Assembly (NCBI RefSeq): GCF_017355875.1
Contig: NZ_JAFEWC010000004.1
Coordinates: 12,989 to 76,988 of the forward strand
Length of the DNA: 64,000 nucleotides
Direction: 5' to 3'
Origin: Aridibaculum aurantiacum
GTDB lineage: Bacteria; Bacteroidota; Bacteroidia; Chitinophagales; Chitinophagaceae
Shown one piece after another: positions 16,908 through 56,820 of the stretch. Both the position numbers and the translations under genes were made by a program. Under the pieces are notes generated by a model, which did not search any database, was not told the DNA's origin, and was given only the letters and a program-made list of their open reading frames with translations. The number at the start of each line of letters is the position of its first letter. The stretch's first letter is position 1.

Positions 16908-18917
16908 TTATTCTTCAAATCCCTCCTTTTTTGAGAGTTGTAGTATTCTTATTCCATTTTTTGCCTGCTTTACGGACATGCCCTTTCCTCTGCTTTCAAT
17001 AATACCTAAATTGTAAGAAAGCTTTCTGTCGAACGGGGAAAAAAGATTGTTCTCCTTCGCCCATTTTGCCAATGCAAACCAAGTTTCAGCTTTCACAGTT
17101 GATGCTTCTTCAATCATTTTAATTTCCTGCTCTGTTAATGCCTCTGCCTGCATGCCATTACCACCATACAGAACCAGATGGTTTTTTAGCATTCCTGTGT
17201 CAAAATGCTTATCCCTTAACGTCAGCCAACATTCCTGTCTTTTACACCACTCGGTAATGTTCATACCAGACTTTGAGGGTGACATTATATGTTCCCAGAC
17301 TACATCAATGAGGCGGTTGATTATTGCACGTAAGTCGTCATTTAATTCCTGCTGTTGCCAAATGGTTTCCAGATCAAGCTTCTGCCCTGTTTTGAAGGAG
17401 AGAATAGCAATGGTGTAAGAAACAACATTGGCTTTATAGCCTCCTAGCTTTTTTGCCGTTATCATTTTATCAATCTCATGAAATAAAATAGCTTTGGCAA
17501 TCACGTGATGGTACTGCGTCTTGGAAATTTCCACGTTGTGATCCGTGTCCTTCACAAACAACAGGAAGTTTTTTTCTCCTCCTTTACTGGCATCATGAGG
17601 ACGTTGTCGCCAGCTCATCTCATATTTTGCCAAATCTGTTTTATTAAACTTTTGCTTCTTTGGATACTCTACATCGAAGCGCTTCTGATCCTTCTTGGAA
17701 GGTATTCTTGAACGTTCGTCTAAATACTGTCCTCTTGTCCTTTCATAATACCACTTGCTTATAGCTTTTCCTCCACCAGTTTCCGGAACCCACTCACTCC
17801 TCGACCATTGCTCTAGAGAAACGTGATACTGCGAATTTGAACTGAAGTCCGAGTCTTTGATAGCTGTCTGGCTGTTTGCGAACCTTGAAATGCTGGGAAC
17901 TACGTCATTTAAACTGTTACCAGGTTTAACGACAGATATCTTCATCGGCACGAAAGCCCTAGAAAGGTCAATTCCCTTTTCACCGGAGGTGTAATAGATG
18001 GAAGCCGTTGTCTGGCCACCATTCACAATCTGCAGATTCTCAATTCGGTTCAGATAAGGGATACCTTCTTCATATATCACGTCCACTTTTTCCGCGGTGG
18101 TGGAAATGCCATTGTTGTAGGCGAAGAACATATCTGGCTGGGTCCTGATGGTTTCTCGGATGCCGTTATTCACCTTTGCCTTGAACTGCAGAAAGGTCCT
18201 TACATTTTTTTCCAGAAGTCCCTGCTTATACTGGCCATATATGTCTGCGAGAATCAGAGCAGGGAGAATTGCAAGATATTCATCCACTTTATCGCTCACA
18301 TTCTCCATCTGAAGACACTTCAGTCTGTAATTATAATCCCTTTGAAAATCAATTTCAATCTTCTGTTTTCCTGCTTTAATTAAATATTGCTGGTATATCC
18401 GCTCGATATCCCACAGCTCATAATCCCAAATAATATCGTTTTCCTCTTTATCCTGTGGTACAATGTGTGGTGAGCATAGCCCATTGGTAAGGACAAAAAC
18501 ACGGACGTTTCTGGAATAAGCTTTGGTATGCTGTATGATATCAATAAAATCAGACAGCTGTTCGTCTGGCTGATCAACTTTATCTCCAATAGTTCCATTT
18601 CTAACTGCCAGAAAGAACTTTTCGGCTTTGCTGAAAGCGTCTAGCACGTCTTTGTCTGAGATCTTCTGAATTCTTGAATCTTCTTTACTTAACGTGACAA
18701 ACAGATCAATAGCCTCATTGTCATCGTCATAGTCCAAGGCGTTAATTTTCATGCCTCTCACTTTGAAACTGCATACTTGCGGTTCAAGAATTTCACCGCA
18801 ATCTTTTATGTATTCCAAGATATCAATTGTAATTGCATCTTCTAAAGAAAGACTGTCAGTATCGACACTAATCATTACATTTTCAAGAAAGTCAGCTGCA
18901 AATTCGTCAAGTGTCAC
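16908..18917 (-). CDS. AIPR-family (abortive infection phage resistance) protein
   Basis: 669 aa. It has an AIPR-like N-terminus (MTLDEFAADFLENVMISVDTDS…) and carries the VNGGQTTASIYY (NGxQT) motif remembered as diagnostic for AIPR. It lies 11 bp downstream of the DUF1998 gene. Confidence 0.5.
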   Translation of the reverse strand: MTLDEFAADFLENVMISVDTDSLSLEDAITIDILEYIKDCGEILEPQVCSFKVRGMKINALDYDDDNEAIDLFVTLSKEDSRIQKISDKDVLDAFSKAEKFFLAVRNGTIGDKVDQPDEQLSDFIDIIQHTKAYSRNVRVFVLTNGLCSPHIVPQDKEENDIIWDYELWDIERIYQQYLIKAGKQKIEIDFQRDYNYRLKCLQMENVSDKVDEYLAILPALILADIYGQYKQGLLEKNVRTFLQFKAKVNNGIRETIRTQPDMFFAYNNGISTTAEKVDVIYEEGIPYLNRIENLQIVNGGQTTASIYYTSGEKGIDLSRAFVPMKISVVKPGNSLNDVVPSISRFANSQTAIKDSDFSSNSQYHVSLEQWSRSEWVPETGGGKAISKWYYERTRGQYLDERSRIPSKKDQKRFDVEYPKKQKFNKTDLAKYEMSWRQRPHDASKGGEKNFLLFVKDTDHNVEISKTQYHHVIAKAILFHEIDKMITAKKLGGYKANVVSYTIAILSFKTGQKLDLETIWQQQELNDDLRAIINRLIDVVWEHIMSPSKSGMNITEWCKRQECWLTLRDKHFDTGMLKNHLVLYGGNGMQAEALTEQEIKMIEEASTVKAETWFALAKWAKENNLFSPFDRKLSYNLGIIESRGKGMSVKQAKNGIRILQLSKKEGFEE

Positions 18918-18928
18918 AATGTTTGATT

Positions 18929-20995
18929 TTATTGATTAAAAAGTCCAATTCGTGAATTATTAAGTGTTCCGATCACCGCTGCACGATCCAGGTATTTGTT
19001 CATTTTTTCGCAGCTTGTTTCGGGTAGCAGCACACAGGAATAGCAGGCTGCAAGGTTAAGCCCCATAAAGCCCTGCCCCTGTTCTGCTGATATGCAAAGC
19101 GGATCAGAGGAGCACCAGCGCGCTTTATCGACACCTTTGTTCATCACTGATGAAAGATAATCCGGCTGTCCTTTTTCAACCAATCCGCCTAGGGATCCCT
19201 CAGCGTCGGAAGTCGTGGTATAAATAAGGATACCGTTCATCTCTTCTTCAGTCCCGATTGAAGAGTTGCCACTACAGTAGATAATTTCTGCGAGGGATGA
19301 AAGACTGTATCCGCAGTCCTCTGCCAGCTCTTTTAGCAGTATATGGGAAAGTGTATGCAGGAATAAGTACCGTTTATTGATTAACTCATGATTCTGGTTG
19401 AAACTGAGGTTCGCCTGTTCTAAGTTGTGGTTTATCGTATCGAGACGTGCATTCGGATACTCATCTGCCCACGCATTGAGCTTTTTATTACTGAACTTAA
19501 GAAAAATTCCTTCTCCTTTCACTTCAACTGCGGGCAATTCCCTTGTATGCAAGGGGTCTCTGCGTGCATCCTGTATACGCTCAAATTCGTGTTTCTGCTT
19601 CGTATCTAAATTATCCGCAGCTTCTGCAAAAACTAGTTCTTCACCCATCAATGGTTTCACCCGCGTGAACCCCTTATAGACCTTCAGTGCGGAGAGTTTT
19701 TCAAGTAGTACTACTTCCTCCAACAGATCGGGCTGACCTGTGAGGCTGTTGTATTCATTACCATCAACTTTCTTCTTTTTGAACCATACTGTCTTATCCT
19801 TTATCACTGTCCCTGTAAAAGCGCTGAATTCCTGTTGACGAAGCAATACAGCTTTGTTGATAAAGCGCTCTTCGGGCTTTTCACCAAAATGATTCCGGAT
19901 AAAACCGATGACTGCTTCCTTGGTATAGCCAAGTTTCAGCAACTGGTGATTCGGATTGCTTTCGACAAGTCTGATCAGGAAATCGCGCCATTGCTCGTTT
20001 GTATAGTCCTGATATATATCCGGCATACTGTCCCTGAAAATTGTGACCGTTGAGTCCAGATTTTGCTGCACTTCCGGAGGGCATTGCTGCTCATAGGCTG
20101 ACTGTGGCAGGAGGATACCGCTGTAAATAATGGGGAAAATAATATTGCCGGCGCCCCTTTGCATTGTCCTGGGAAACTTGCGCTTTGCAGCCGGTGATAA
20201 ATCATCACCGTCCATGATGTTTCCCTGCCTTGGAACGTCACTGACGAGCTCTGTTACATAGCTCTCATTGTTATGCCATCCTTTCCATGGTTTTGGCAGG
20301 TAATTGTTTACATAATCCAGATAATTTCCTTCTGCATCTGTTTCAGTGAAAATTGACTGGTCAAATATCTGACCGAGATCTCTGCTGGCTAAAAAAGTAT
20401 TGCTTCCTCTCCGGTAACTCTCAATTGTAATATCGCTCAGACCTGCTGATCCTCCCTTTGATTTATAATAAAGCAGATGTCTCTGGCCCCTTTCTTTAGG
20501 ACAGCTTTTGTGAACAAACCAGTCCCAAGGAAAATCACCCAGAAAACCCTCTTCTGTCGCAATCACAAAGCGCATTGGCACCAGATTGGGGCCGATACCC
20601 GTCTGATTATTAGTGCAGGCATCACAAGTAAAAGCTCGCATCTTCTGATCGAAAGAGCCCCGTTCAATTATTGCCTGCCCTCTCGTCTTTGTAATAAAAT
20701 GAATCAGCCCACACTTTGGACAATACTGCGCTCCGGGAAACCGTATTCCATAGGCGGATAGATTATTAATGCCATCCTCCTGTGGGGGAACCACAAAATG
20801 ATCGACCTTAAATGCTTCTGCCAGGCGACTGTCTCTAATCACCTGTTTTTTATTCGGGTCTTCCTGATTTACATTTCCCCAGTCGCCGTAGCCATCATCA
20901 TGGCACAGCATGATCAGTGAAAGCTCCGGAAAATCAATCATTGAGCCGGACGGCCATGTATGTATAATTTGTGACTGTCTGATATCGTAACTCAT
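18929..20995 (-). CDS. DUF1998-domain protein (DrmB/MrfB-like) with an N-terminal zinc ribbon
   Basis: 688 aa. The C-terminal cysteine signature AACYSCVLLPETSCEKMNKYLDRAAV, preceded by TTTSDAEGSLGGLVE, is typical of DUF1998. A second Cys cluster is CPKCG…CDAC. The start lies 3 bp after the helicase stop. Confidence 0.65.
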   Translation of the reverse strand: MSYDIRQSQIIHTWPSGSMIDFPELSLIMLCHDDGYGDWGNVNQEDPNKKQVIRDSRLAEAFKVDHFVVPPQEDGINNLSAYGIRFPGAQYCPKCGLIHFITKTRGQAIIERGSFDQKMRAFTCDACTNNQTGIGPNLVPMRFVIATEEGFLGDFPWDWFVHKSCPKERGQRHLLYYKSKGGSAGLSDITIESYRRGSNTFLASRDLGQIFDQSIFTETDAEGNYLDYVNNYLPKPWKGWHNNESYVTELVSDVPRQGNIMDGDDLSPAAKRKFPRTMQRGAGNIIFPIIYSGILLPQSAYEQQCPPEVQQNLDSTVTIFRDSMPDIYQDYTNEQWRDFLIRLVESNPNHQLLKLGYTKEAVIGFIRNHFGEKPEERFINKAVLLRQQEFSAFTGTVIKDKTVWFKKKKVDGNEYNSLTGQPDLLEEVVLLEKLSALKVYKGFTRVKPLMGEELVFAEAADNLDTKQKHEFERIQDARRDPLHTRELPAVEVKGEGIFLKFSNKKLNAWADEYPNARLDTINHNLEQANLSFNQNHELINKRYLFLHTLSHILLKELAEDCGYSLSSLAEIIYCSGNSSIGTEEEMNGILIYTTTSDAEGSLGGLVEKGQPDYLSSVMNKGVDKARWCSSDPLCISAEQGQGFMGLNLAACYSCVLLPETSCEKMNKYLDRAAVIGTLNNSRIGLFNQ

Positions 20996-20998
20996 AAG

Positions 20999-23900
20999 TT
21001 AAATGCTTTTAATCCTTACTTTGGAAGAAGATTCGACATTTCTCAATGTCTGCATTGTCGGAATGTGGTCCTGCAGCAGGCTTTCAACAAATTGTGCCGG
21101 AGCATTGTAAACAGCATTCGGATTTCTGATTTTAGTTACAACCTGTTCTATGTTGGGGTCATAACGCATATAATCCGTATAGACTGCTAGCCTCCGGTCA
21201 CCATCGAGCATTGAGAGCCGTGTAGTGAACTCCTGCTGAATAGAATCAATTGTATCACATATCTCAGTTGCGTCAGCCGCTCCATAAATGGCAATTGCTT
21301 TGGCTTTGACATCCTGTATAACGCCGTCAACAAATGTCCTGTAAGCTGTATCTGCGGGACTGAATACACCGTGGCTTCCGGTAAGAAACAAACTGCGGGT
21401 CAGGGTAATCAGCACTGTAGGCAGGACCTTTTCGAGTGCCGGCCGGGAGAATGGTGTAACGGAGCTTGCTTCAACATGATAGTAATAAGCCTGATGGAAT
21501 GCCTTGAATTGTTCATAATGTGAACGGTCCCTGTTTTTAGTGGGTGCAAGAAAAGTGAAAACCACACCAGGGCCTTCCCTTCCTACCCTTGAGCTGGCCT
21601 GAATATATTCTGCAGTAGTTTTGGGCTGACCGTTTACAATCATGGTGTTCAGCCTGGGAATATCAACGCCCACTGAAATCATGTTTGTCGCCGGTGCAAT
21701 CTGCACCGGATCGGGATGTCCCCCCATAAGATTGTTTACAGCATTGATAAACGATTTATAATCCTTTTCACTGTCACCTGAAAAAGCAAGATCGATCTGA
21801 TCGAAAAAAGGCTTGTTTAAAAATCCTGACCAGACAGAACCTTTTGCTGTTTTAATATCTCCATTTGTCCGGATACCCGTTGCGAAAAGTTTCTGAACCA
21901 GCAAATTATTTTCATCAAGCCCGGCAGGAAGTGTTGTCTTTTCCAGTCTGTCAAGACCTTTGTTAATGTCATCTGCCGTCATGACACTGGACAATTCACA
22001 AAGGGCATTCTGGTTGAACGGTTTGAAAAACGTGCTGAAATGATTAGCCAGCATTTTCCTGTAAGCGACAATGTCATCGGTAAGAAAGGTCCTGAACTTT
22101 CCCAATTCTTTTAATGCATTGAAATACACAACCAGTGTGTAATACCGATCCAGCTCTCCATTTGCTGCGGGCAGTACAGGTATTCTTTCAAGCAGGACTG
22201 AGGCCAGCCGGATCAGGGCTGTGCTGGTAGTCACACCCGATGGCATGAATCCAACATAGAGCCTGTTCTTTGGATCGTCTACCTTGATTTTCTTTGCGTA
22301 AAACGAATCGTCTGCATCGGTAGCCGGAGGAGGAAACTGAAGAAAATGCTTCCTGCCGTACAAACGCCTGCATTGTTCTTCCGCATTCCGAACGGTTGCC
22401 GTAGCGCCAACGACTTTGCAGATATTTCCCTCAGCTTCCCGGCAAAGTCTGTCGATTACAATCTCATATACCCCATATATCGTTCCCAAGGCAGAACTGA
22501 TCAGATGTAGTTCATCTTGAATGATCAGTTCCGGGGAAGGATAGAGCCGTTTTACCTGATTATTGCTGAACTCTGTATTGAACAGATTGAAGGCATCACT
22601 CCTCCAAGCAAGCTGAACAAATTTATCGACAGTGGAGAACAGCAGTGACGGACGTTCCTGGTAAATTGTTTCATCCACTTCATAAACAGGAAATGTTTTA
22701 TCAGGGTTTTTCCGGAAGTCAGCAGCAGTCACATAGAAGGCACAACGGGTATTTGTGCAGGCCATGTGATAACGTCCTGTTTCACTCCCTCTGTTATTTA
22801 CCGTCCTGAAATAACCCCATCGTCCGATTACCTGATTGTTTTCAATTTCACGGACAAGACGGTTGCCGCAACACGGACAGGACAGCAGCGGAGGTGAACT
22901 TTTGTAAGTACTTGGTTGTCTGCCTCTGTTTACCTGCCTTATATAATCAGCATAGTCCCTCTGCTGATCCTCCTCATTGTTTGGTGTCATGGATCTACCC
23001 ATCCAAATACCGTTTGATATTCTGACTTTCCCATATGCAGCCGGTTCCATCCGCCGGATAAGATCACAGGAACAGATCAGAATTGTTGCCCGCTCAAATT
23101 GTTGTTTGTTAAGAAGTCTCAATGTATACCGCATGAGGACAGAGACACCTGCTCCTTGGTCAGGGTCATTATATGATTTTCTAGCTTTCAAACGCCTGAA
23201 GAAAATAGTGAATGCTGTAAGACCTAAATAAGCTTCAGTCTTACCACCGCCTGTGGGAAACCAGATAAGGTCGACAGTATCACGGTCCGGTGAGGACGGG
23301 TCTGTAATCCCTTGGACCTGGGAAAGTAAGAAGGCGAGCTGAAACGGGCGCCAGCGTGCTAGTGTCCCCGTTTTTTCATAGTTGATTAAATCGATATGGA
23401 GTTCTCCTTCTTGCCATATTTTTCCAGCACCGGCATCAAATGGAATTTTGGTGTAATCGGGCAGGCCGTCATCTGTACCTGCGTTATTTTTCTGTACGCG
23501 TCCTGCCACCCTTCTGTGTCTGCTGAAATCTGCCATTACCCGCTGCATAAACATAGCCCTGTTGGCATCTTCAAAGGCTTTCCGTGCTTCGCTGTCTGCA
23601 GCTAGCAACTCAATCCCTTTCTTCATCCTTTCATAAAGCTTCTCACATTTTTTAAGGTTTTTTACGGCCTGTTCTTTAAGTTTCGGTTCCAGCCCATTGT
23701 TCTTGATTTGCTCTCCCTGATCGACTATCCACTGTTTATATAAATCGATAAACACTTCCAGCTCACTTTTTACCGTTGTCCAGTCATATGACATTTCAAG
23801 CGCAGTTCCGCTCAGTCTCTTTATATACAAAATATTGCTCCCCTTGAATACGTCCGGATTCAGATCCACACCATTCACTTTTTCCTGTGGAAGTACCTGT

Positions 23901-24793: not shown

Positions 24794-24802
24794 AAAATTG
24801 AT

Positions 24803-26545
24803 TTAGTTTGAATTGGCGATACGATTCGCGATAACAGAATGATACCGGCTGTTGATAAAAAAAATGCTTTGCGCTGTAGCCCGTGTATTGGCAATATAGA
24901 TCAGTGACATCTGCTTTTTGTCATTCGGATTATAATCTTCCGGACTGCAGATAAGGATAAATCTGTTTTCCAGTCCCTTGTAGGCATGAATGGTTGACAC
25001 AATTACTTTACCGGAAACCGGAAAAGCACTTTCAACATACCGGCCCGGATTGGATTGTACAAGAGATATAAGCTGCTCTCTTTCCGAACAAAGAATTGTT
25101 ACATCTTTTCGTTCAACTCCTTCAGCTTCCAGTTTTATGATTGTCTCACTGACCCTGTTTTTCAGATCAGTATCAGAAGAATAAAACTTTATTTCACTGT
25201 TCCAGGTTTGATCCGTGCGAAGACAGGGCATTTCAGGGAAACCGGTTTGCAGTGAGGCCCTTTTGATTGTGGAAAGCGTATTCCTGCAGTTCAATTGAAG
25301 CAGACTGACAAAGCAGGGATACACATCACGCAAGTACTCAAAATATTCATCTGCATCATTGTTGTAAATGTTCTGGTACTCTTTGTCCATAAAAATTGCC
25401 CAGTTACCTGATTCTAGGCCGCCTTTCAACAGAAGTCCCAGTGCTTCGAAATGATATTCATTCAATATATCCTGCCCCTCATCTATGATCAGGTAATCGA
25501 ACGACCGCTTTTTAGTTTCTGCCAAGTTCCGAACAAACTGAAGCGGCAAATCACGGGACCAGTATTCCTCATTGCTGCTGATGTCACCCGGCGGGTTTTG
25601 AAGAAAATCCCTGTCCCTGTATAAACTATGAAGGTGACAGATAAAATAATTTCCTTCAGTCACAAGGTTACGGCCTTGCTGAGTAAGGTATTCCGCCAGA
25701 TTTTTATTAAAACAGATTAACAGGGTGCGCCTGCCATCTGTAAGTGCCCTTTTGAAAAGCTCCAGCGCGAGGAGTGTTTTGCCGGTTCCTGGGCCTCCCA
25801 TAATCACGCCTCCCTTTCCCGGATTGTATTTCAGGTTATCCAGAATATACATCTGCATTCCTGTGAGGCGCTGTGCTTCCTCGCTTCCTTTTTTCAAAAG
25901 ATCAGAAACGGGCAACCGGAAATGAAGATCCTGCCGGAAGTAACGGCTGACGGTACTTAGTTCTTTCTGACTTAGACCTGATCTTCCAGCATATTGCGGA
26001 TGAGCGGACCAGTATCGTTTAACTTTCTGAAGAAAACCGATTAGACCCCCTTTCTTATGATCACTGTAATCATAAATCAATTCCGGATCAAATTCCATTT
26101 GCCCCATTGTTGATTTTCTGAACTCATCGGGTTTAATGGTGTCAGGGAACAAGACACCGATACCATATACCAGCCGTCCCGGGATGGATTTGCCCCGGAA
26201 CAAATCCGGCAGCAGTGTGTCTCTCGTATAAAATAAAGTGTTGTACGCCTGCCTGAAAGGATCACCCGGCTCTGTACCTCCCTGAACATACCACTGATTT
26301 TTGAGCGAGTCGAATTTTACTGATCCGCCTTTTACTTCCAGAAAAAGGATGCATTCGCTGTCCATGTACACAAAGTCTATCTCTCCTTTGATCTTCTTAT
26401 CCCCTGTTTTTGCCATGTTCAGAGAATGAAAAAGATATTTTTCGGTGTTATTAAAATAAGTGCTGTTTGCGGCCACCACATAAATCTCTTTTTCAGCCTG
26501 TGAGTTGAATTCATATCCGTTCAATGAAGAGGGACTAAGGGGCAT
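24803..26545 (-). CDS. NERD-domain nuclease fused to a UvrD-like SF1 helicase/ATPase (Nhi-like architecture)
   Basis: 580 aa. The N-terminal ~110 aa have a NERD-like (nuclease-related domain) pattern (EIDFVYMDSECILFLEVKGG). Walker A is GGPGTGKTLLALE and Walker B is LIIDEGQD. A UvrD C-terminal motif V-like TIHAYKGLENRFILI is present. Confidence 0.6.
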   Translation of the reverse strand: MPLSPSSLNGYEFNSQAEKEIYVVAANSTYFNNTEKYLFHSLNMAKTGDKKIKGEIDFVYMDSECILFLEVKGGSVKFDSLKNQWYVQGGTEPGDPFRQAYNTLFYTRDTLLPDLFRGKSIPGRLVYGIGVLFPDTIKPDEFRKSTMGQMEFDPELIYDYSDHKKGGLIGFLQKVKRYWSAHPQYAGRSGLSQKELSTVSRYFRQDLHFRLPVSDLLKKGSEEAQRLTGMQMYILDNLKYNPGKGGVIMGGPGTGKTLLALELFKRALTDGRRTLLICFNKNLAEYLTQQGRNLVTEGNYFICHLHSLYRDRDFLQNPPGDISSNEEYWSRDLPLQFVRNLAETKKRSFDYLIIDEGQDILNEYHFEALGLLLKGGLESGNWAIFMDKEYQNIYNNDADEYFEYLRDVYPCFVSLLQLNCRNTLSTIKRASLQTGFPEMPCLRTDQTWNSEIKFYSSDTDLKNRVSETIIKLEAEGVERKDVTILCSEREQLISLVQSNPGRYVESAFPVSGKVIVSTIHAYKGLENRFILICSPEDYNPNDKKQMSLIYIANTRATAQSIFFINSRYHSVIANRIANSN

Positions 26546-26547
26546 GA

Positions 26548-29139
26548 TTATATTTTATAAATTGTCGAAATTCTTTTTATCTCAATATGATTGATAAAAT
26601 CATTTAACAGGTTGTCCGTATAAACCTCATCTTCTTGGAACCTGATACCATAAAGCCGTGCGATAAGTCTACGGATTGCGGTTCTTACAAAGCCTGCCTG
26701 AATGGATTTAAGATCAGCGTTGTGTTTATTGAAAGAACCGATTTCATCATTGTTGATAATGCCAAGTTTACCCAGTGCATGCAGCAAACTCACAAAATTA
26801 TCCGGGCGTTGCGTGTCACCATCGATCCAGTTTTTCACTGTTGCAGGACCAATTTTAAATCCGTTGTCCAGCAGTTTTTTGCAGAAGAAATTCAGGTCCA
26901 TCCGGCACCGGACGATATGATTTTTCAGCAGGAGCCTCCATTTTTTATCCATCTCAATTGCCAGAGAAAACGCAGGGTCTTTTCTTAAGGCCTGCTCCAG
27001 CAGGTCTTTGACCTGAAGACCACGTCTGGCTACAATAATCTGATCACCCGCGCTCAAGGTCGTTACGGACCTAAAAGACGCTTCATAATCAAAATCTTCC
27101 TTATCATCTTCATACACATAGAAATGTCTTGACTCCGGCACCTGACTAAGTGTCCTGTCATCAAACAAAAGAATGTATTTTTCAGATAGTTCTTTTGCAT
27201 TAGAACCTTCATATTGCTGAACAATCTTTTGAACCACTTCCTGCAGGTCAATGTCCTGAACTTCTGATACATTTTGGACAATTTCCGGTTCTAACTTCGG
27301 CACATTAAACTCAACCTCAATGAGACCAGAGGCTATATTATCCGGAGACGAGGATGGCGGCTGGAGATTAAGCAAAGTATACTTCACACGGTCACAACCT
27401 ACTTCTTTTTGTATGTCCTGATATTTACCAAATAGGTTTTTTGCAAAATAGCAGCTTCTTTCATTTAATATAAATAACTGATTTGCTGCTAACACATTGC
27501 CAATTGCCGCACCAATTGTTTTTCTATCACTGGTCAAATAAAATATATATGAAGAAGGAACTTCATTTTTCTGATTAAATGTGTGGAATTCTTTTTTATG
27601 GATATGTAGGATTTTGATGTTAGGGAGGGTCTCTCCCAAAGTATTTACAAGCCACTTCGCATCTTCAATGCTGCTGTTGTCCGATACTATTTCAATTGTT
27701 CCTTGTAAAGTTCTGCTGTTTAGCTCCTGTAAAATAATTGGTAGTTTGAAGTTGACAAAACGAGAATTATTCAAAATGTATTGTTCCAAATACCATTTTA
27801 TGTCTTCTATTAGACCATAATCTTGTCCGCCAGAAAACCAGTTCTGCCGAAGTTCCTCTAAACTGGATAAAAAATCGGTTGAAAATTCCTGCAGAGCTTT
27901 AGGATCGAAAAAAGAATTTAGTTTAGTACGTAGATTGTAAAGACAACTGAGGGGTCGTATTATTTCACCATTACAAAAGCTTTCTTGAGCTATGTTTTTC
28001 AATCTTAAAATCAGGTCCCAAAGTTTCTTATTTAAATTTTCAAACTCAGGATCTCCTGTAGATGTGACAATTACTTTTGGTGGATTAGCTACTTTCTTTT
28101 CATCAAGATCTAATTGCTCCAATGGCTGCAAGAGCCATGGATTGTATTCTATTTTTAATTCATTAAAATAAGTATGAATATCCAGGTTGCTGATCCGGGA
28201 AATTAAGTACATATCCTTGATCTGTTTGTCCCGCACCATTTGAAGATATCCTTCATTTAGGTTTTGTAGTTCTTGCAAAAGGCTTTGTGACCTTTCCCAA
28301 CTGTATATAAAAGAATCGAAATCATCTAAGATTATAGTTTTGACATGATTAAATCGACCTTTACCTGCCTCTATGATTGATTTATAAGCGCGAAACGAAT
28401 CCTGACGTGCAACAATCAGAGAAACTGGAGCATTCTCAGTATTAGGCCCAGAAAGACGCTGAAACCGTAACTCTGCATCGTTGGCAGGAAAAATGACTTT
28501 TTGAATGTTTAAATGTCTTCTTAGATCAGTCCCTGCAACTTTTACGTTTTTAAGAAGACTCTCGAATTTGCTTATATTGGTAAACAAAACAACTGCCTCA
28601 AAATTATCTTGGGGAAGTATTGGAAGAGTAAAAATATTTTGTTCAACTGCTTGATCTAAATCTGCAAATTTCTCAATCTTATCTCTTAAAAAATTTGAAT
28701 TAGACAACCAGTTTAGTTTGTATGTTTCGTCAAATGGAATTGATTTATCACCACCAGTCCCTGCTTGAATAATTAAACTGCGATCTATAAAATTAACTTG
28801 CCTTACATCATATATAGTTCCATTTAAAACGACTTGTTTACAGTTTGGTCCGTATGCTAAATTTCCAAAGTCATGCCTTTTCATTGAAAGGGACAATGCT
28901 TTCCTGTACTGACCCATTATTACAAAGAATGGGACTAAATTTATCGTAGTGGTACTGTTTGACGGATAAAGGCCTATAATTCGGTGGTTCCGATCGACAG
29001 TATTTTGATGGATTAAAAATGGAAGAAGTTGGCTTGCAGTAAAGTCAGACACAATGCAACCATTGATTTCATATTGAAGATTTCTTAAATCTGGGCATTC
29101 GCATGATATGGAATGCTGTATATAAGCCTTGTTAAGCAT
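26548..29139 (-). CDS. Hypothetical 863-aa protein (possible DrmE-like component), strongly AT-rich gene
   Basis: Long uninterrupted ORF, first gene of the tightly spaced block (2-bp gap to the next gene). No recognisable catalytic motif by eye. Composition is visibly AT-richer than the flanking housekeeping genes. Confidence 0.6.
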   Translation of the reverse strand: MLNKAYIQHSISCECPDLRNLQYEINGCIVSDFTASQLLPFLIHQNTVDRNHRIIGLYPSNSTTTINLVPFFVIMGQYRKALSLSMKRHDFGNLAYGPNCKQVVLNGTIYDVRQVNFIDRSLIIQAGTGGDKSIPFDETYKLNWLSNSNFLRDKIEKFADLDQAVEQNIFTLPILPQDNFEAVVLFTNISKFESLLKNVKVAGTDLRRHLNIQKVIFPANDAELRFQRLSGPNTENAPVSLIVARQDSFRAYKSIIEAGKGRFNHVKTIILDDFDSFIYSWERSQSLLQELQNLNEGYLQMVRDKQIKDMYLISRISNLDIHTYFNELKIEYNPWLLQPLEQLDLDEKKVANPPKVIVTSTGDPEFENLNKKLWDLILRLKNIAQESFCNGEIIRPLSCLYNLRTKLNSFFDPKALQEFSTDFLSSLEELRQNWFSGGQDYGLIEDIKWYLEQYILNNSRFVNFKLPIILQELNSRTLQGTIEIVSDNSSIEDAKWLVNTLGETLPNIKILHIHKKEFHTFNQKNEVPSSYIFYLTSDRKTIGAAIGNVLAANQLFILNERSCYFAKNLFGKYQDIQKEVGCDRVKYTLLNLQPPSSSPDNIASGLIEVEFNVPKLEPEIVQNVSEVQDIDLQEVVQKIVQQYEGSNAKELSEKYILLFDDRTLSQVPESRHFYVYEDDKEDFDYEASFRSVTTLSAGDQIIVARRGLQVKDLLEQALRKDPAFSLAIEMDKKWRLLLKNHIVRCRMDLNFFCKKLLDNGFKIGPATVKNWIDGDTQRPDNFVSLLHALGKLGIINNDEIGSFNKHNADLKSIQAGFVRTAIRRLIARLYGIRFQEDEVYTDNLLNDFINHIEIKRISTIYKI

Positions 29140-29250
29140 GTCAGGTTAATATTAAAACCGGACAACATTGGGGGATGTTAGTCTTGGTTAGCTAAGCAGG
29201 TTAATTGCAAGTTGAATGTACAACTTCATTAATTAACTACTACAGTTAAC

Positions 29251-30516
29251 CTACAAAATCTTCATTATTGATTTCGCAATTGCATAAGCCATTAATGGCG
29301 GCACTGCGTTTCCTATCTGCTTGAATGCGGCAGTTCTATTAAAAGATAGTTTTCTTTTAATATCACTTGGCTTCACTCCTTCAAAATAATAATCATCCGG
29401 GAACGATTGAAGCCTGGCTGCTTCTCTAACTGTCAATGAACGGATTTGCTTGATATCAGGATGAATATAATAATGACCGTCTTTCGCTATATGGGCAACA
29501 ACTGTCTGTGAATAAGGCAGGTCATCGGCAACTACTTTGAAACGATCAAAAAAAGAAGTCCTATTGTTATGGGTTTTAAGTTCATCAGGTAGATCATTAT
29601 AATTTAATCTCTCCCCGCTCCTTTTCCACTTCTTTATAGCGATACGATATATTTTTTTGTCTTGTTGGTTATGTGGACGGGAGATATGTTGGGTCAGTAC
29701 GTCTATGCCATTTCTGATGCAATTGTTTATTAAATATTGATTTGTATCACCTGCGTAAGCCTGATATTTATCTATTCCAGCTCCTGCCAATAAAACTGGT
29801 AAATCAACTAATACATCAGCTACGGTGGATTTGGTTTGGTGTTTTACTTCTTCGAGATTTGGTATCTCAAGATTTAAATCTTTCTTCCATCCAATAATAA
29901 TTACTCTCCTTCTTCTTTGTAATACACCAAAATTGTTTGCTTCAACAGTAAACAGTTTCATCTTATAACCTCGATCTAAAAACAGCTTCTCCATCTGTTC
30001 AAGATAAAATCCTCTTTTGGCTGACTTCAACCCAAGAACATTTTCAAATACAAACATTTTAGGTTTATAAAAAGCTAGATAGTTGGCGTATTCTACAAAT
30101 AAATAGTTTCGAGGATCACCCTCCATCTTTGTTGCAGATCTGGATCTACCAGCCAGTGAGTAAGCCTGACATGGAGGTCCACCTATAATTAAATCTACTT
30201 TTTGCTTGCCGAGGAGGCTCTTTATTGTTTTATGAATGGTCTCATTATGCTCAGGCCCAACTGGCAGATTAATTATTGAAGACTTTACTTCATCAGGGAT
30301 TTCTTTATACAATTTTTCTCGACTTATCTCTCCCCTTAAATAGGATACATAGATGCTGTACTGATTGTTTGCCTTCAAGTAATGGTAGGCAGTTCTGGTT
30401 CTTAAGGAATAGCAAGCAGCTTTATCCATTTCAACGTGTGCAATAGGGGTAAATCCTGCCCGGATGAAGCCCTCGGATAATCCACCGGCACCTGCAAATA
30501 AGTCTATGAAGTTCAT
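29251..30516 (-). CDS. dcm: DNA (cytosine-5)-methyltransferase
   Basis: 421 aa. Motif I FAGAGG, motif IV GGPPCQAYSLAGR, motif VI FVFENVLGL, motif X QIGNAVPP. Confidence 0.9.
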   Translation of the reverse strand: MNFIDLFAGAGGLSEGFIRAGFTPIAHVEMDKAACYSLRTRTAYHYLKANNQYSIYVSYLRGEISREKLYKEIPDEVKSSIINLPVGPEHNETIHKTIKSLLGKQKVDLIIGGPPCQAYSLAGRSRSATKMEGDPRNYLFVEYANYLAFYKPKMFVFENVLGLKSAKRGFYLEQMEKLFLDRGYKMKLFTVEANNFGVLQRRRRVIIIGWKKDLNLEIPNLEEVKHQTKSTVADVLVDLPVLLAGAGIDKYQAYAGDTNQYLINNCIRNGIDVLTQHISRPHNQQDKKIYRIAIKKWKRSGERLNYNDLPDELKTHNNRTSFFDRFKVVADDLPYSQTVVAHIAKDGHYYIHPDIKQIRSLTVREAARLQSFPDDYYFEGVKPSDIKRKLSFNRTAAFKQIGNAVPPLMAYAIAKSIMKIL

Positions 30517-30941
30517 TTCCTGGAAGATACAATTTTGCCAGGCAATTTAGCAAGAGTTTTTTGAAGTTTCCCTGCTTTTGTCTCACACTCCCAGACTGTG
30601 AGTACTTTCCATCCAGCATCTTGAAGAGCTTTTTTGTTTCTCTTGTCTCTTCTGACGGTATCCGAAAACTTCTTTTTCCAATTTGTACTAGATTCTTGTG
30701 ATGGAGTCGTGCAATACCTGCAGCCTGGATGCCGATGAAAATAACACCCATGTATGTCAACTACCGTTTTATACTTCGGCAAAACAATATCAGGCTTACC
30801 CGGCAGATCCTTGACATGAAGCCGGTAACGGAAGCCGTGCTTGTGCAGAAAGCGACGCACCAGCATCTCGGGCTTTGTATCCTTGCCCCTGATTGCAGCC
30901 ATATTTTTACTGCGTGTTGCTTTATCATGCACATCTGCCAT
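30513..30941 (-). CDS. vsr: Very-short-patch-repair endonuclease
   Basis: Vsr signature MADVHDKATRSKNMAAIRGKDTKPE…VDIHGCYFHRHPGCRY…VWECE. The stop overlaps the dcm start in ATGA. The supplied ORF extends to 31049 (178 aa), but the conserved Vsr N-terminus begins at the Met at 30941. Confidence 0.8.
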   Translation of the reverse strand: MADVHDKATRSKNMAAIRGKDTKPEMLVRRFLHKHGFRYRLHVKDLPGKPDIVLPKYKTVVDIHGCYFHRHPGCRYCTTPSQESSTNWKKKFSDTVRRDKRNKKALQDAGWKVLTVWECETKAGKLQKTLAKLPGKIVSSRK

Positions 30942-31175
30942 ATACCAAAGCTCCAGTTCAATCATCTCGCCAAAGTCTCTGCCAGCACCTTTAACACCGT
31001 ACAAGTTGCGACCCCGCCTTCGCCAATGCTTCGGTCGGGGCAGGCGCAATCGCGGCCAAATAATATTATAGGGCTGGTCCCATAATAATTCCTTCCCAAG
31101 TAAGCGGCGGCGTGGTAACCATGTGATGGATGATTGGTGGCGAGATCCAACACCTATTCACGCAGCACCCACCCA

Positions 31176-31213
31176 TACAAAAAACAAAAGGAGCAGTTGC
31201 CTGCTCCTTTCCT
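31176..31213 (-). terminator. Rho-independent terminator of the flotillin operon
   Basis: GGAGCAG-gcaact-CTGCTCC hairpin followed on the minus strand by TTTTGTTTTTTG, directly 3' of the flotillin stop at 31214. Confidence 0.6.
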
Positions 31214-53691: not shown

Positions 53692-54765
53692 TTAGATCTT
53701 CAAAGAAAAGAGCTCCAGGCCATTGCCTTTTCCTTTTAGTTCTACCATGCCTAATGCTTCAGTTTGCCAGGCTTTCAGATCTATAAGCTCACGCATTTCT
53801 TCCGAAATAATATACTTCTGGTTTAGCTCGCTACAAGCACTGCGAATGCGTGCCGTAGTATTCATAGTATCGCCGCTCATGGCAATATCTTTTTTGATTA
53901 CGCCTATCTCTCCTACTGTTACATCACCTACATGTATACCTACCCTAAACTCAGGAATAACTCCATATTTCCGCCTGAAGTCTTCGTTGTGTTTTTGCAG
54001 GTTCTTACGAGCCTCAATCAATGCCGCCATACAACGCTTTGCATTCTTCTTATTGTTCACCCACGACACCACTACCTCATCGCCAACGTATTGGTAAATG
54101 TTTCCACCATGCTCAATGATAGCATGCGATATCTGGTGAATAAAATCGCGGATGAATTTGAAGTATTGCTGGTGTCCCAGTTTCTCGGCGATAGGCGTCG
54201 AATCTTTCAGGTCAAGAAACATAACAATACGTTTCTCAATTTTAGGCTCGATGTATTTTCCGATCAATATATCCATGAACACGCCCGGCGAGTACTTTTC
54301 ATTTATCTCCAGTACCAGTTGCGTCATAAAGAATAGCCCCATCCAGTAGATGATCTTTTGCGTTAGCCAATCAGGCTGAAATGCATCTTGCCCATAGCGA
54401 TGAAATGCTTCTACAACGCCAAGATCTAGGATGAAAACAATGTGGGCTGCATGAATGAGGTAGTTAACTATATAAGCCGCCACCAACAGTATAAGACTGC
54501 GAAGCAAAAAGCTAAGCCAGAGCGAATGACGCGTAAATAATTTTCGCAACTTAAACACCAGCAGGTAACCGATACCCAGGCTCATTACAAATAATAAAAA
54601 CGAACGTAGCGCTATGGCTGATGCAAAGCTGTAGTAAGTAGGTTCGCTTCGCGTAAGCAGTACCACAAAATCTAAACACGTCCAGAAAAGTGATATATAA
54701 AAAATGAGCTTAAACCTATACCTGTTTACAAAGCTGAAATTGAAATATTGTTTCAGGGATTTCAT
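53692..54765 (-). CDS. Membrane-anchored class III adenylate/guanylate cyclase
   Basis: 357 aa. About six N-terminal TM helices. The C-terminal cyclase domain shows a FLDLKDSTPIAEKLG metal-binding segment and GDEVVVSW…GIHVGDVTVGEIG. Its start overlaps the ppk1 stop by 4 bp. Confidence 0.75.
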   Translation of the reverse strand: MKSLKQYFNFSFVNRYRFKLIFYISLFWTCLDFVVLLTRSEPTYYSFASAIALRSFLLFVMSLGIGYLLVFKLRKLFTRHSLWLSFLLRSLILLVAAYIVNYLIHAAHIVFILDLGVVEAFHRYGQDAFQPDWLTQKIIYWMGLFFMTQLVLEINEKYSPGVFMDILIGKYIEPKIEKRIVMFLDLKDSTPIAEKLGHQQYFKFIRDFIHQISHAIIEHGGNIYQYVGDEVVVSWVNNKKNAKRCMAALIEARKNLQKHNEDFRRKYGVIPEFRVGIHVGDVTVGEIGVIKKDIAMSGDTMNTTARIRSACSELNQKYIISEEMRELIDLKAWQTEALGMVELKGKGNGLELFSLKI

Positions 54766-56807: not shown

Positions 56808-56820
56808 CTTAATTAATTGT

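What the first reader, a model, noticed from the sequence alone, without database searches (positions are those of the whole stretch)
16908..31049. Seven-gene minus-strand defence island: Vsr-Dcm plus a DISARM-like helicase/DUF1998 core lacking DrmC, with NERD-helicase and AIPR genes added
The genes run in order Vsr, Dcm (C5-MTase), an 863-aa orphan, a NERD+UvrD-like helicase, an SF2 DExH helicase with zinc ribbon, a DUF1998 protein, and AIPR. The last five are separated by only 2-11 bp, indicating one operon. Helicase followed by DUF1998, plus a C5 methyltransferase and a large orphan protein, is the class-2 DISARM logic (DrmA/DrmB/DrmMII/DrmE). No PLD-nuclease DrmC is present. Two genes not part of canonical DISARM (a NERD nuclease-helicase and an AIPR abortive-infection-family protein) are embedded in the same operon. 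I do not recognise this combination as a described system. It may be a new DISARM subtype in which a NERD nuclease replaces the PLD nuclease and an Abi-type effector is hard-wired downstream.
Basis: partly seen in the sequence, partly recalled or inferred. Interest (0 to 1): 0.88.

Follow-up and report, generated by a model that had tools for sequence, protein, structure and literature searches.

The report
DISARM variant with NERD nuclease-helicase
This seven-gene anti-phage island is a class-2 DISARM system that lacks the usual PLD nuclease gene and carries a nuclease-helicase gene that has co-evolved with the DISARM core in dozens of other genomes, which makes it a testable candidate for DISARM's unidentified DNA-cutting component.

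Summary
All seven minus-strand ORFs are at the stated coordinates with the stated domains. The 1264-aa and 688-aa proteins are true DrmA and DrmB (PDB 7S9V, E 3e-118 and 2e-87). Dcm matches a DrmMII model end to end. The "orphan" is a divergent DrmE. No PLD gene lies in the island.

The new result is comparative. DrmE–NERD/SF1 helicase–DrmA–DrmB is a conserved block in every relative examined, down to 31% helicase identity. A NERD-type helicase lies next to DrmA or DrmB in 30 of 44 well-covered DrmB-relative loci. Its divergence tracks DrmA and DrmB as tightly as they track each other (r about 0.94). Its nuclease and ATPase residues are invariant in 36 of 36 sequences.

AIPR is fixed after DrmB only in the closest sub-clade, and appears upstream in two distant loci. 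Dcm/Vsr is a shuffled module.

Best reading: a widespread class-2 DISARM variant with an integral nuclease-helicase, probably the effector. PADLOC and NCBIfam have no DISARM-specific model for this helicase, and I found no description in the held literature. Ofir 2018, the founding DISARM paper, could not be read.

The function is inferred, not shown. The main rival is an independent defence gene embedded in the operon.

The parts
30513..31049 (-). vsr (very-short-patch-repair T:G mismatch endonuclease). This is the maximal ORF from a TTG. The real start is probably Met37 at about 30941.
   Evidence: PF03852 4e-30 and TIGR00632 129 bits, above its cutoff of 98. The translation shows the canonical Vsr N-terminus from residue 37. 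It overlaps dcm by 4 bp.
29251..30516 (-). C5 cytosine DNA methyltransferase (DrmMII-type Dcm), the self-marking module.
   Evidence: PF00145 3e-62. PADLOC DrmMII PDLC02649 7.8e-169 covers residues 1-421. It is only 30-31% identical to the Dcm of the sister loci L005 and L097, but 50-53% identical to Dcm of distant DISARM loci, so it is a shuffled module.
26548..29139 (-). Divergent DrmE (863 aa). The predicted fold contains SF2-helicase-like RecA domains without a Walker A motif.
24803..26545 (-). NERD (PD-(D/E)xK) nuclease fused to an SF1 helicase. It is the conserved extra component of this DISARM variant.
   Evidence: NERD PF08378 at residues 32-111, plus AAA_19, ResIII and UvrD_C_2. The best PADLOC hit is the DRT-associated 'RTasNERD-Hel' at 8.8e-33, and there is no DISARM model for it. 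D57, E70-x-K72, Walker A G253-T257, D355/E356, R421 and R555 are invariant in 36 DISARM-linked homologues. It sits between DrmE and DrmA in all near and mid relatives. Mantel r is 0.946 against DrmA and 0.936 against DrmB. The AF2 model has pLDDT 88; the nearest solved folds are SLFN11/14, Upf1, UvrD and Dna2.
20999..24793 (-). DrmA, the YprA-family SF2 DExH helicase of DISARM.
   Evidence: PADLOC DrmA 6.1e-192. NCBIfam DISARM_DrmAS 839 bits, below the equivalog cutoff of 950. PDB 7S9V_A (Serratia DrmA) 2.8e-118, the only PDB hit. GKT 517-519 and DELH 760-763 are invariant in 36/36.
18929..20995 (-). DrmB (DUF1998/MZB zinc-binding partner of DrmA).
   Evidence: PF09369 2.7e-7. PADLOC DrmB 6.2e-61. 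NCBIfam DrmB_fam 346 bits, above its cutoff of 240. The clade profile matches PDB 7S9V_B at 2.3e-87. Conserved Cys clusters are seen.
16908..18917 (-). AIPR (AbiU1/AIPR-family) protein. It is an accessory tail gene, fixed only in the closest sub-clade.
   Evidence: PF10592 2.6e-96 and AIPR_N 1.1e-29. NCBIfam MzaE gives 360 bits against a cutoff of 1050, so it is not an MzaE equivalog. Orthologues of 70% and 71.5% identity lie directly after DrmB in L005 and L097. AIPR lies upstream of DrmE in L071 and L090. It is absent in L007-L010, L013 and L017.
31186..31211 (-). Intrinsic-terminator-like hairpin ending the upstream SPFH/Band_7 gene. It marks the 5' border of the defence unit.
   Evidence: An 11-bp stem with 5 GC pairs, followed by a T-run. 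It is the strongest terminator-like site between 16 and 33 kb. The sequence is shown.

Best explanation
The island (about 16.9-31.2 kb, minus strand) is a class-2-type DISARM restriction-like defence system. It belongs to a conserved variant whose core operon is DrmE - NERD/SF1 nuclease-helicase - DrmA - DrmB.

Shown here: what the genes are, that the block is conserved, that the helicase co-diverges with DrmA and DrmB, and that its catalytic motifs are intact.

Inferred from published DISARM work: the Dcm (DrmMII) methylates host DNA at its motif, and Vsr repairs the T:G mismatches that 5mC deamination creates. The DrmA-DrmB complex loads on unmethylated invader DNA with single-stranded 5' ends and translocates using ATP. 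DrmE is an essential partner; here it is predicted to be a helicase-like protein without ATPase motifs.

My inference: the NERD-SF1 protein, translationally coupled between drmE and drmA, supplies the nuclease activity that PLD DrmC was once assumed to provide. It would unwind and cut the DNA that DrmAB has engaged.

In the closest sub-clade an AIPR gene, of a family classed as abortive infection, is attached after drmB. It probably acts as a second-line effector or partner. Dcm/Vsr is an exchangeable specificity module.
For: DISARM identity:
- PADLOC, NCBIfam and Pfam hits.
- The only PDB sequence matches are Serratia DrmA and DrmB, at 2.8e-118 and 2.3e-87.

Conservation of the block:
- The identical seven-gene order occurs in Spirosoma flavus.
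- DrmE-NERDhel-DrmA-DrmB occurs in Pedobacter agri, Salegentibacter salarius, Halalkalibaculum and metagenome contigs, down to 31% helicase identity.
- The result holds whether the search starts from the helicase or from DrmB.
- Specificity controls: a 31%-identical generic NERD-helicase (L011) is not in a DISARM locus, and the next DrmB clade examined (L014, 26% identity) has no such helicase.

Breadth:
- Of 44 DrmB-relative loci with at least 1.8 kb visible on both sides, 17 have a helicase of about 580 aa before DrmA, 11 have one after DrmB, and 2 have both (30 in all). One more has a split copy. None has a PLD.
- Pfam finds NERD in 7 of the 9 helicases of this size that were sampled.

Co-evolution:
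- Distance-matrix correlations over 36 loci are 0.946 (helicase vs DrmA) and 0.936 (helicase vs DrmB), against 0.949 for DrmA vs DrmB. Mantel p is at most 5e-4.

Selection on activity:
- NERD residues D57 and K72 are identical in 36/36 and E70 in 35/36 (one D). The Walker A, Walker B and arginine-finger positions are identical in 36/36.

Operon:
- Gaps of 2-11 bp. No strong internal terminator.

Literature:
- DrmC is dispensable and often missing, and how DISARM degrades DNA 'has remained a mystery' (PMC9142583).
- drmA, drmB and drmE are essential in class 2 (bioRxiv 10.1101/2021.12.28.474362).
- AIPR is frequently linked to RM systems (PMC3506569).
- ARMADA II pairs a YprA-family helicase with a toxin-fused GajB-like SF1 helicase, a parallel design.
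Against: - Nothing here is functional. No defence, methylation, interaction or nuclease assay exists for this variant.
- Co-divergence would also arise if a passenger gene were simply inherited with the block.
- In a crude NJ tree, generic NERD-helicases that are not DISARM-linked nest among the DISARM-linked ones. The protein family can therefore live outside DISARM and might act autonomously.
- HNH genes co-occur with the helicase in some loci (L017, L022, L047), so the 'one nuclease slot' idea is not clean.
- The two PLD-bearing loci (L072, L085) lack upstream context, so mutual exclusion of PLD and NERD is untested.
- The 80 metagenome loci are the best of 587 hits to patterns derived from this clade. 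The frequencies are biased and are not population estimates.
- The window's DrmE and DrmA score below the curated NCBIfam cutoffs.
- Ofir et al. 2018 could not be read, so a prior depiction of this gene cannot be excluded.
Confidence: 0.65

Rival explanations
1. The NERD-helicase (and AIPR) are self-sufficient single-gene defence systems that are merely embedded in, and co-regulated with, a DISARM operon. They would not be DISARM components.
For: DISARM, BREX, Hma and type I RM systems often carry embedded defence genes in the same orientation (bioRxiv 10.1101/2024.01.29.577857). The helicase's best PADLOC match is a NERD-helicase model from another context (DRT-associated, 8.8e-33), with weaker hits to Nhi, AbiO and GajB. 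Generic NERD-helicases occur outside DISARM (L011) and nest among the DISARM-linked ones in an NJ tree. AIPR changes position between lineages and is absent from most loci.
Against: Embedded cargo is normally variable. Here the same helicase family stays put from 100% to 31% identity, in every locus of the DrmB clade that was examined. It co-diverges with DrmA and DrmB as tightly as they do with each other. It is retained in three different arrangements across deep DISARM lineages. The 2-bp and 9-bp gaps suggest translational coupling. For AIPR alone this rival is much stronger than for the helicase.
Confidence: 0.2
2. The NERD-helicase is an integral DISARM component but acts upstream, not as the killer nuclease. 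It could be a second motor analogous to the SNF2 helicase DrmD of class 1, or an end-processing enzyme that resects invader DNA ends to make the 5' single-stranded substrate that DrmAB senses.
For: Class 1 DISARM pairs DrmAB with a second helicase, DrmD. DrmAB is activated by DNA with 5' overhangs (PMC9142583). The nearest solved folds include the end-processing or translocating enzymes Dna2, UvrD and RecD2. Some loci carry additional nucleases (HNH, or UvrD-PDDEXK_1 in L048) that could be the effector instead.
Against: The PD-(D/E)xK triad is invariant in 36/36 sequences, so nuclease chemistry is needed. No other nuclease is encoded in the window's operon, apart from Vsr and possibly AIPR. 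Nothing here separates the sensor-side role from the effector-side role.
Confidence: 0.12
3. The helicase/DUF1998 pair is a housekeeping MrfA/MrfB-type DNA-repair module, or the locus is a decayed, non-functional DISARM remnant that has lost DrmC.
For: The Pfam name of the DUF1998 domain is 'MrfA Zn-binding domain'. The neighbours are housekeeping genes: ligA and DUF2461 on one side, SPFH and asd on the other. PADLOC's type II rule requires DrmC (PMC9252829).
Against: The only PDB matches are DrmA and DrmB, with no MrfA hit at E <= 1e-3. Helicase and DUF1998 are separate genes, which is the DISARM hallmark. All ORFs are intact, with invariant catalytic motifs. DrmC is dispensable for defence. 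The GC content dips to 0.35-0.39 and the neighbouring genes are defence-type (Dcm, Vsr, AIPR), which marks a horizontally acquired island.
Confidence: 0.03

Closest known systems
Class 2 DISARM (Bacillus paralicheniformis type: drmE-drmA-drmB-drmC-drmMII; Ofir et al. 2018, as summarised in bioRxiv 10.1101/2021.12.28.474362 and PMC9142583)
   Same: It has DrmA, DrmB, DrmE and a C5 methyltransferase of the DrmMII type. Helicase and DUF1998 are split into two genes. It sits in a defence-island context.
   Different: There is no PLD DrmC. A NERD-SF1 nuclease-helicase gene sits between drmE and drmA and co-evolves with the core. Vsr accompanies the methyltransferase. AIPR is appended in the nearest sub-clade. 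DrmE is very divergent (below Pfam and NCBIfam cutoffs) and PADLOC v2.0.0 DrmE models miss it.
Class 1 DISARM (Serratia sp. SCBI; DrmD-DrmMI-DrmA-DrmB-DrmC; structure 7S9V)
   Same: The DrmA/DrmB core is homologous (E 1e-118 and 1e-87). A second helicase gene lies in the operon.
   Different: The second helicase here is an SF1 enzyme with a NERD nuclease, not the SNF2 DrmD. There is no N6-adenine methylase DrmMI. DrmE is present.
ARMADA type II and TALON (YprA-family systems; Bell et al. 2025, bioRxiv 10.1101/2025.09.15.676423)
   Same: A YprA-family helicase is teamed with a nuclease or toxin. [quoted passage not shown] TALON pairs the YprA homologue with a NERD-type PD-(D/E)xK endonuclease.
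   Different: Those systems have single-gene YprA homologues of the ARMADA/Druantia branch, with PglX/BrxHII or TPR-CSD/TBP partners. The window has the split DrmA/DrmB of the DISARM branch with DrmE and Dcm. The N-terminal domain on the SF1 helicase is NERD, not RelE.
Stand-alone or otherwise associated NERD-helicases (PADLOC 'RTasNERD-Hel', 'C3a187 NERD+UvrD', Nhi, AbiO)
   Same: The domain architecture is the same: an N-terminal PD-(D/E)xK nuclease plus an SF1 helicase. The best PADLOC hit is 8.8e-33.
   Different: Matches to Nhi, AbiO and GajB are weak and local (1e-7 to 1e-8). The clade studied here is tied to DrmE, DrmA and DrmB rather than to reverse transcriptases or solitary loci.
AbiU1/AIPR proteins linked to RM systems, and MzaE of the Mza system
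   Same: The AIPR and AIPR_N domains are present. The gene is physically attached to a methylation-based immunity system, as noted for RM-AIPR pairs (PMC3506569).
   Different: It scores 360 bits against the MzaE equivalog cutoff of 1050. No homologue of the other Mza proteins was reported among the seven island proteins in the PADLOC scan. The partner is DISARM rather than a type I or type III RM system.

Membership tests
DISARM (core) | DrmA: YprA-family SF2 helicase (pfam00271 helicase C domain, DExH box) | tested here: met
   PADLOC DrmA 6.1e-192. NCBIfam DISARM_DrmAS 6.3e-252, but 839 bits is below the equivalog cutoff of 950. PDB 7S9V_A DrmA 2.8e-118. GKT and DELH are invariant.
DISARM (core) | DrmB: a separate DUF1998/MZB protein encoded directly downstream of DrmA | tested here: met
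   PF09369 2.7e-7 (31.6 bits, above GA 24.2). NCBIfam DrmB_fam 346.5 bits, above its cutoff of 240. PDB 7S9V_B 2.3e-87. The gap after drmA is 3 bp.
DISARM (core) | DrmC: PLD-domain (pfam13091) nuclease following DrmB | tested here: not met
   None of the seven proteins gives a PLD hit in Pfam, PADLOC or NCBIfam. The six-frame scan gives one match in the window, in an ORF-less stretch at 41059 (the match itself contains a stop codon), and none in the island; the only match in L005-L014 is an unrelated 138-aa ORF in L008. The gene after DrmB is AIPR. DrmC is reported to be dispensable and often absent, so this lowers strict rule-based membership (PADLOC type II) rather than kinship.
DISARM class 2 | DrmMII: C5-cytosine methyltransferase (pfam00145) in the locus | tested here: met
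   PF00145 2.9e-62. PADLOC DrmMII PDLC02649 7.8e-169 over residues 1-421.
DISARM class 2 | DrmE encoded upstream of DrmA | tested here: met
   The window protein is below cutoffs: Pfam DrmE_C 20 bits against 27, and NCBIfam DrmE_fam 36.6 against 80 (E 1.7e-9, aligned over residues 182-782). PADLOC finds nothing. Positional orthologues carry PF24957 (8 of 10 homologues). An iterated HMM joins it to DrmE proteins that pass the Pfam threshold, for example L024 at 34.6 bits.
DISARM class 2 | Anti-phage activity; methylation-dependent self-protection (drmMII deletion toxic); drmA, drmB and drmE essential | not testable with these tools
   These properties are known only for the Bacillus system, as cited. 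No experiment exists for this variant.
MrfA/MrfB DNA-repair module | Single-gene helicase with fused DUF1998 (MrfA) plus an MrfB exonuclease, in a housekeeping context | tested here: not met
   Helicase and DUF1998 are separate genes. There is no MrfA hit in PDB at E <= 1e-3. No exonuclease partner is present. The neighbours are defence-type genes.
Mza system (MzaABCDE) | MzaE equivalog together with MzaA-D | tested here: not met
   NCBIfam MzaE gives 360 bits against a cutoff of 1050. No other Mza family appears in the PADLOC scan of the seven island proteins.
Proposed variant: NERD-helicase DISARM | A NERD-SF1 helicase of about 580 aa adjacent to DrmA or DrmB, co-diverging with them, with intact nuclease and ATPase motifs | tested here: met
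   Synteny. Prevalence of 30/44. Mantel r of 0.94-0.95. Motif invariance in 36/36.

The most novel reading that the evidence does not exclude
The NERD-SF1 helicase is the long-missing DNA-degrading effector of class-2-type DISARM. It would be physically coupled to DrmAB through the pseudo-helicase DrmE, so that in a large and previously unrecognised branch of DISARM the system is a five-part 'sense, translocate, cut' machine. In one sub-clade, AIPR would be a wired-in suicide backup that fires when phage inhibit the DISARM core.
Probability: 0.3. Interest if true: 0.75.

Novelty: new variant of a known kind. Interest (0 to 1): 0.6.

Why it matters
How DISARM destroys or blocks invading DNA is unresolved. 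Its annotated nuclease, DrmC, is dispensable and often absent, and the structural work leaves the effector step open (PMC9142583).

A branch of DISARM has kept a catalytically intact nuclease-helicase inside the core operon and co-evolved with it over deep divergence. That gives a concrete candidate for the effector step: point mutants in D57/E70/K72 and K256, and pull-downs with DrmAB and DrmE.

The result also shows that current annotation resources (PADLOC v2.0.0, NCBIfam, Pfam) under-describe these loci. They miss the DrmE, have no model for the helicase as a DISARM gene, and their rules require DrmC.

The freely exchanged Dcm/Vsr module suggests that the motor and effector parts work with different methylation motifs. 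The repeated, independent attachment of AIPR suggests that immunity and abortive infection are coupled here.

Tried and rejected
- The genome-contig scan with the NERD-helicase alignment was wasted. The tool chose generic Walker A and Walker B peptides and returned four irrelevant loci, L001-L004. No census of isolate genomes was therefore possible.
- The look-up of P0082 (Virgibacillus) found no record.
- The tblastn of DrmB against plasmids gave only distant DISARM-like cassettes. Two that I inspected (Bacillus toyonensis, Photobacterium) carry other partners and were not informative for class 2.
- The sigma-70 promoter scan was at chance (33 found, 33.4 expected) and is not suited to Bacteroidota. 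I assigned no promoter.
- Hypothesis 'DrmE tracks the methyltransferase' is rejected. Loci whose Dcm is 50-53% identical to the window's have DrmE proteins undetectable by BLAST. DrmE simply evolves fast: 41-48% identity where the other core genes are 67-82%.
- The HEPN Rx4-6H motif claimed in the literature for the AIPR N-terminus could not be seen as a conserved motif in the four-sequence alignment. It is left unverified.
- The label 'UvrD790' absorbed all SF1 helicases after iteration. I re-checked the NERD domain with Pfam.
- Searches of the supplements of Bell 2025 and Payne 2024 for NERD, AIPR or DrmE in a DISARM context found nothing.
- Ofir et al. 2018 is not held.
- There are no tRNA genes in the window. 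I saw no integrase or transposase among the flanking genes that I scanned.


Full report
**Observation**

The seven minus-strand ORFs are exactly where the finding says. They are Vsr 30513-31049, Dcm 29251-30516, an 863-aa protein 26548-29139, a 580-aa protein 24803-26545, a 1264-aa protein 20999-24793, a 688-aa protein 18929-20995 and a 669-aa protein 16908-18917.

From those coordinates, vsr and dcm overlap by 4 bp and 111 bp separate dcm from the 863-aa gene. The last five genes are separated by 2, 9, 3 and 11 bp.

The flanks are housekeeping genes. NAD-ligase and a DUF2461 gene converge on one side. An SPFH/Band_7 gene and asd lie on the other. The strongest terminator-like hairpin of the region (31186-31211) closes the Band_7 gene just upstream of vsr.

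GC content falls to 0.35-0.39 over 26-31 kb, against about 0.45 elsewhere. There is no tRNA in the window. I saw no mobility gene among the flanking genes I scanned.

The exact 580-aa protein is on record from Aridibaculum aurantiacum, a member of the Bacteroidota.

**Identity of the genes**

Pfam, PADLOC and NCBIfam agree.

- Vsr: PF03852 4e-30. The likely true start is Met37, at about 30941.
- Dcm: a C5 methyltransferase that matches the PADLOC DrmMII model PDLC02649 end to end (7.8e-169).
- 1264-aa protein: DrmA. PADLOC 6e-192 and NCBIfam DISARM_DrmAS 6e-252, though its 839 bits fall under the 950-bit equivalog cutoff.
- 688-aa protein: DrmB. NCBIfam DrmB_fam 346 bits, over its cutoff of 240.
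- 669-aa protein: AIPR plus AIPR_N (2.6e-96). It is MzaE-like only at family level (360 bits against a cutoff of 1050).
- 580-aa protein: a NERD PD-(D/E)xK domain (residues 32-111) fused to an SF1 helicase. Its best PADLOC model is a DRT-associated NERD-helicase (8.8e-33). NCBIfam has nothing for it.

Against all PDB sequences, DrmA hits only Serratia DrmA (7S9V_A, 2.8e-118). A profile of the DrmB clade hits only Serratia DrmB (7S9V_B, 2.3e-87). This rules out the MrfA/MrfB repair alternative that the finding named as a refutation.

The 863-aa 'orphan' is a fast-evolving DrmE.
- It scores below thresholds: Pfam DrmE_C 20 bits against 27, and NCBIfam DrmE_fam 1.7e-9 but 36.6 bits against 80, aligned over residues 182-782.
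- Its positional orthologues carry PF24957.
- An iterated HMM joins it to 50 DrmE ORFs upstream of DrmA in other loci, including ones that pass Pfam's threshold.

No PLD is present in the island. The only PLD fold seen in the window is polyphosphate kinase.

**Is the NERD-helicase part of the system?**

The helicase has about 67 full-length homologues running from 100% down to 31% identity. Below that lies a plateau of generic NERD-helicases of about 30% identity and 553-560 aa.

Every member of the clade whose context I could read has the same block.

| Locus | Source | Gene order |
|---|---|---|
| L005 | Spirosoma flavus | Identical seven genes: Vsr-Dcm-DrmE-NERDhel-DrmA-DrmB-AIPR |
| L006/L007 | Pedobacter agri | Dcm-DrmE-NERDhel-DrmA-DrmB-Vsr |
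| L008 | metagenome | Four-gene block; Dcm/Vsr on the other strand |
| L009 | Halalkalibaculum | Four-gene block; Dcm on the other strand |
| L010 | metagenome | Four-gene block; Dcm/Vsr on the other strand |

Starting instead from DrmB gives the same picture. There are 54 clusters from 100% to 35% identity, then a gap to 27%. Salegentibacter salarius and another contig again show Dcm-DrmE-helicase-DrmA-DrmB.

Two controls define the limits. A generic NERD-helicase of 31% identity is not near any DISARM gene. The next DrmB clade examined (26% identity) has DrmE-DrmA-DrmB without the helicase, followed by McrBC-like and GmrSD genes.

**A wider sample**

A metagenome scan with the DrmB alignment returned 80 loci. 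I called ORFs in them and annotated the ORFs with HMMs built here. This showed that the association is much wider than the window's clade.

Among 44 loci with at least 1.8 kb visible on both sides:
- 17 have an SF1 helicase of about 580 aa between DrmE and DrmA.
- 11 have it directly after a longer DrmB.
- 2 have one on each side.
- 14 have none, although one of these is a split copy.
- None has a PLD.

Canonical PLD DrmC follows DrmB only in two short contigs (L072 and L085). Pfam finds the NERD domain in 7 of the 9 helicases of about 580 aa that I sampled from these distant loci.

Other occupants of the neighbourhood include HNH endonucleases after DrmB in gut-type loci and a UvrD-PDDEXK_1 nuclease-helicase in L048.

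Over 36 loci the pairwise distance matrices correlate as follows (Mantel p at most 5e-4):
- NERD-helicase vs DrmA: r = 0.946.
- NERD-helicase vs DrmB: r = 0.936.
- DrmA vs DrmB: r = 0.949.

In all 36 helicases the NERD residues E55, D57, K72, P96 and Q99 are invariant, and E70 is Glu in 35 and Asp in one. The helicase motifs G253-T257, D355/E356, Q358/D359, R421 and R555 are also invariant. DrmA keeps GKT and DELH in 36/36.

The AlphaFold model of the helicase is confident (pLDDT 88). It most resembles the nuclease-helicase Schlafens SLFN11 and SLFN14, then Upf1, UvrD and Dna2. No close solved relative exists.

**Caveats on the comparative evidence**

- The 80 loci are the best of 587 matches to peptide patterns taken from this clade, so the proportions are not population frequencies.
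- Block inheritance alone could produce co-divergence.
- A crude midpoint-rooted NJ tree nests the generic NERD-helicases that are not DISARM-linked among the DISARM-linked ones. The family can therefore exist without DISARM.

**The other modules**

*Dcm/Vsr is exchangeable.* The window's Dcm is only 30-31% identical to that of the sister loci, where DrmA is 68-72% identical. It is 50-53% identical to Dcm of distant loci, where DrmA is about 32% identical. Position and strand of the pair also vary.

*DrmE diverges about twice as fast as the rest.* It is 41-48% identical where the NERD-helicase, DrmA and DrmB are 67-82%. It does not track Dcm.

*AIPR is fixed only in the nearest sub-clade.*
- It lies directly after drmB in the window, in Spirosoma (70% identity) and in a Telluribacter-like contig (71.5%). 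In the last of these, Dcm/Vsr has moved to the other strand.
- A 77%-identical metagenome contig has an ORF of more than 651 aa, cut by the contig end, after the same 11-bp gap.
- More distant members lack AIPR.
- Two deep type-A loci (L071, L090) carry an AIPR of 32-38% identity upstream of DrmE.

The link is thus recurrent but accessory. It fits the long-noted association of AbiU1/AIPR with RM systems (PMC3506569).

**Mechanism**

Shown here: gene identities, operon packing, conservation, co-divergence and intact catalytic motifs.

Taken from the literature:
- DrmAB is autoinhibited by a trigger loop and is activated by unmethylated DNA with 5' overhangs.
- ATPase activity is essential.
- DrmC does not co-purify, is dispensable and is often missing, so how DNA is degraded 'has remained a mystery' (PMC9142583).
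- In class 2, drmA, drmB and drmE are essential and loss of drmMII is deleterious (bioRxiv 10.1101/2021.12.28.474362).

My inference: in this variant the NERD-SF1 protein supplies the nuclease step after DrmAB has engaged the invader. Vsr only repairs deamination damage caused by the methyltransferase. AIPR adds a second-line response in some lineages.

A sensor-side role for the helicase is a live alternative; it could be a second motor like DrmD, or an end-resection enzyme. So is the 'embedded independent defence gene' reading (bioRxiv 10.1101/2024.01.29.577857).

**Comparison with what is known**

By gene content this is class-2 DISARM minus DrmC plus a NERD-SF1 helicase. A strict PADLOC type II rule (DrmA, B, C, E, MII) would not be met. 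PADLOC v2.0.0 also fails to recognise the DrmE.

The most recent survey of YprA-family systems notes 'many uncharacterized DISARM-like ... classes'. It describes a NERD nuclease only in the rare TALON systems, and a toxin-fused GajB-like SF1 helicase in ARMADA II. Those are parallels, not this architecture.

Full-text searches for DISARM together with NERD, helicase, DrmE, class-2 terms or DISARM variants found no description of this helicase as a DISARM gene. Supplement searches of the two most relevant preprints found none either. The founding paper (Ofir 2018) is not held, so prior depiction cannot be excluded.

**Verdict**

The locus is a member of a widespread variant of class-2 DISARM that, as far as I could find, has not been described. 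Its core includes a co-evolving NERD nuclease-helicase.

The AIPR attachment is a sub-clade feature, and Dcm/Vsr is a swappable module. Function remains untested.

Novelty: a new variant of a known kind. Interest: moderate to high for the defence-systems field, because it gives a concrete and mutable candidate for DISARM's missing effector.

Noticed in passing
window 53692-58032 (-): Three tightly packed genes: an HD domain fused to a PycTM Pycsar-effector domain (403 aa, PF18967 6.6e-35), polyphosphate kinase Ppk1 (681 aa), and a Guanylate_cyc-type nucleotide cyclase (357 aa, overlapping ppk by 4 bp). The cyclase plus PycTM effector looks Pycsar-like, but ppk1 sits between them.
   Followed up: no
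window 26000-31000; loci L005, L097, L035, L046, L084, L091: The Dcm/Vsr module is shuffled between DISARM lineages. The window's Dcm is 50-53% identical to Dcm of distant loci but only 30-31% to its sister loci. The DrmE-Dcm stretch has a GC content of 0.35-0.39 against about 0.45 elsewhere.
   Followed up: partly
[not shown]
   Followed up: partly
L019, L024, L026, L036 (after DrmB); L017, L022, L047 (elsewhere in the locus): Gut-metagenome DISARM loci of the DrmE-DrmA-DrmB type carry an HNH_2 endonuclease of 237-253 aa directly after DrmB, in the position of DrmC. Related HNH genes also occur in some loci that have the NERD-helicase.
   Followed up: partly
L020, L049, L076, L092; L048; L014: Further DISARM-like layouts were seen. 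In four loci an extra UvrD-type helicase of 620-790 aa precedes DrmA and the NERD-helicase follows DrmB. L048 has a 969-aa UvrD-PDDEXK_1 nuclease-helicase after DrmB-Vsr. L014 has DrmE-DrmA-DrmB followed by McrBC-like and GmrSD genes.
   Followed up: no
NJ tree of NERD-helicases: Generic NERD-helicases from gut Firmicutes-type contigs, which are not DISARM-linked, cluster inside the diversity of the DISARM-linked ones, next to L020 and L049. This hints at escape from, or repeated recruitment into, DISARM. The tree is crude: NJ with midpoint rooting.
   Followed up: partly
window 30941-31049 (-): The vsr ORF as listed starts at a TTG 36 codons upstream of the conserved Vsr N-terminus ('MADVHDKATRSKNM'). 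The real start is probably Met37, or possibly Met29. That leaves about 245 bp of untranslated leader after the Band_7 terminator.
   Followed up: partly
L013 12355-21263 (+): Downstream of one NERD-helicase DISARM locus lie a second Dcm, a 2OG-Fe(II) oxygenase, a DUF1848 protein and a 1519-aa DEAD-box helicase, all on the same strand. This may be another DNA-modification or defence cassette.
   Followed up: no
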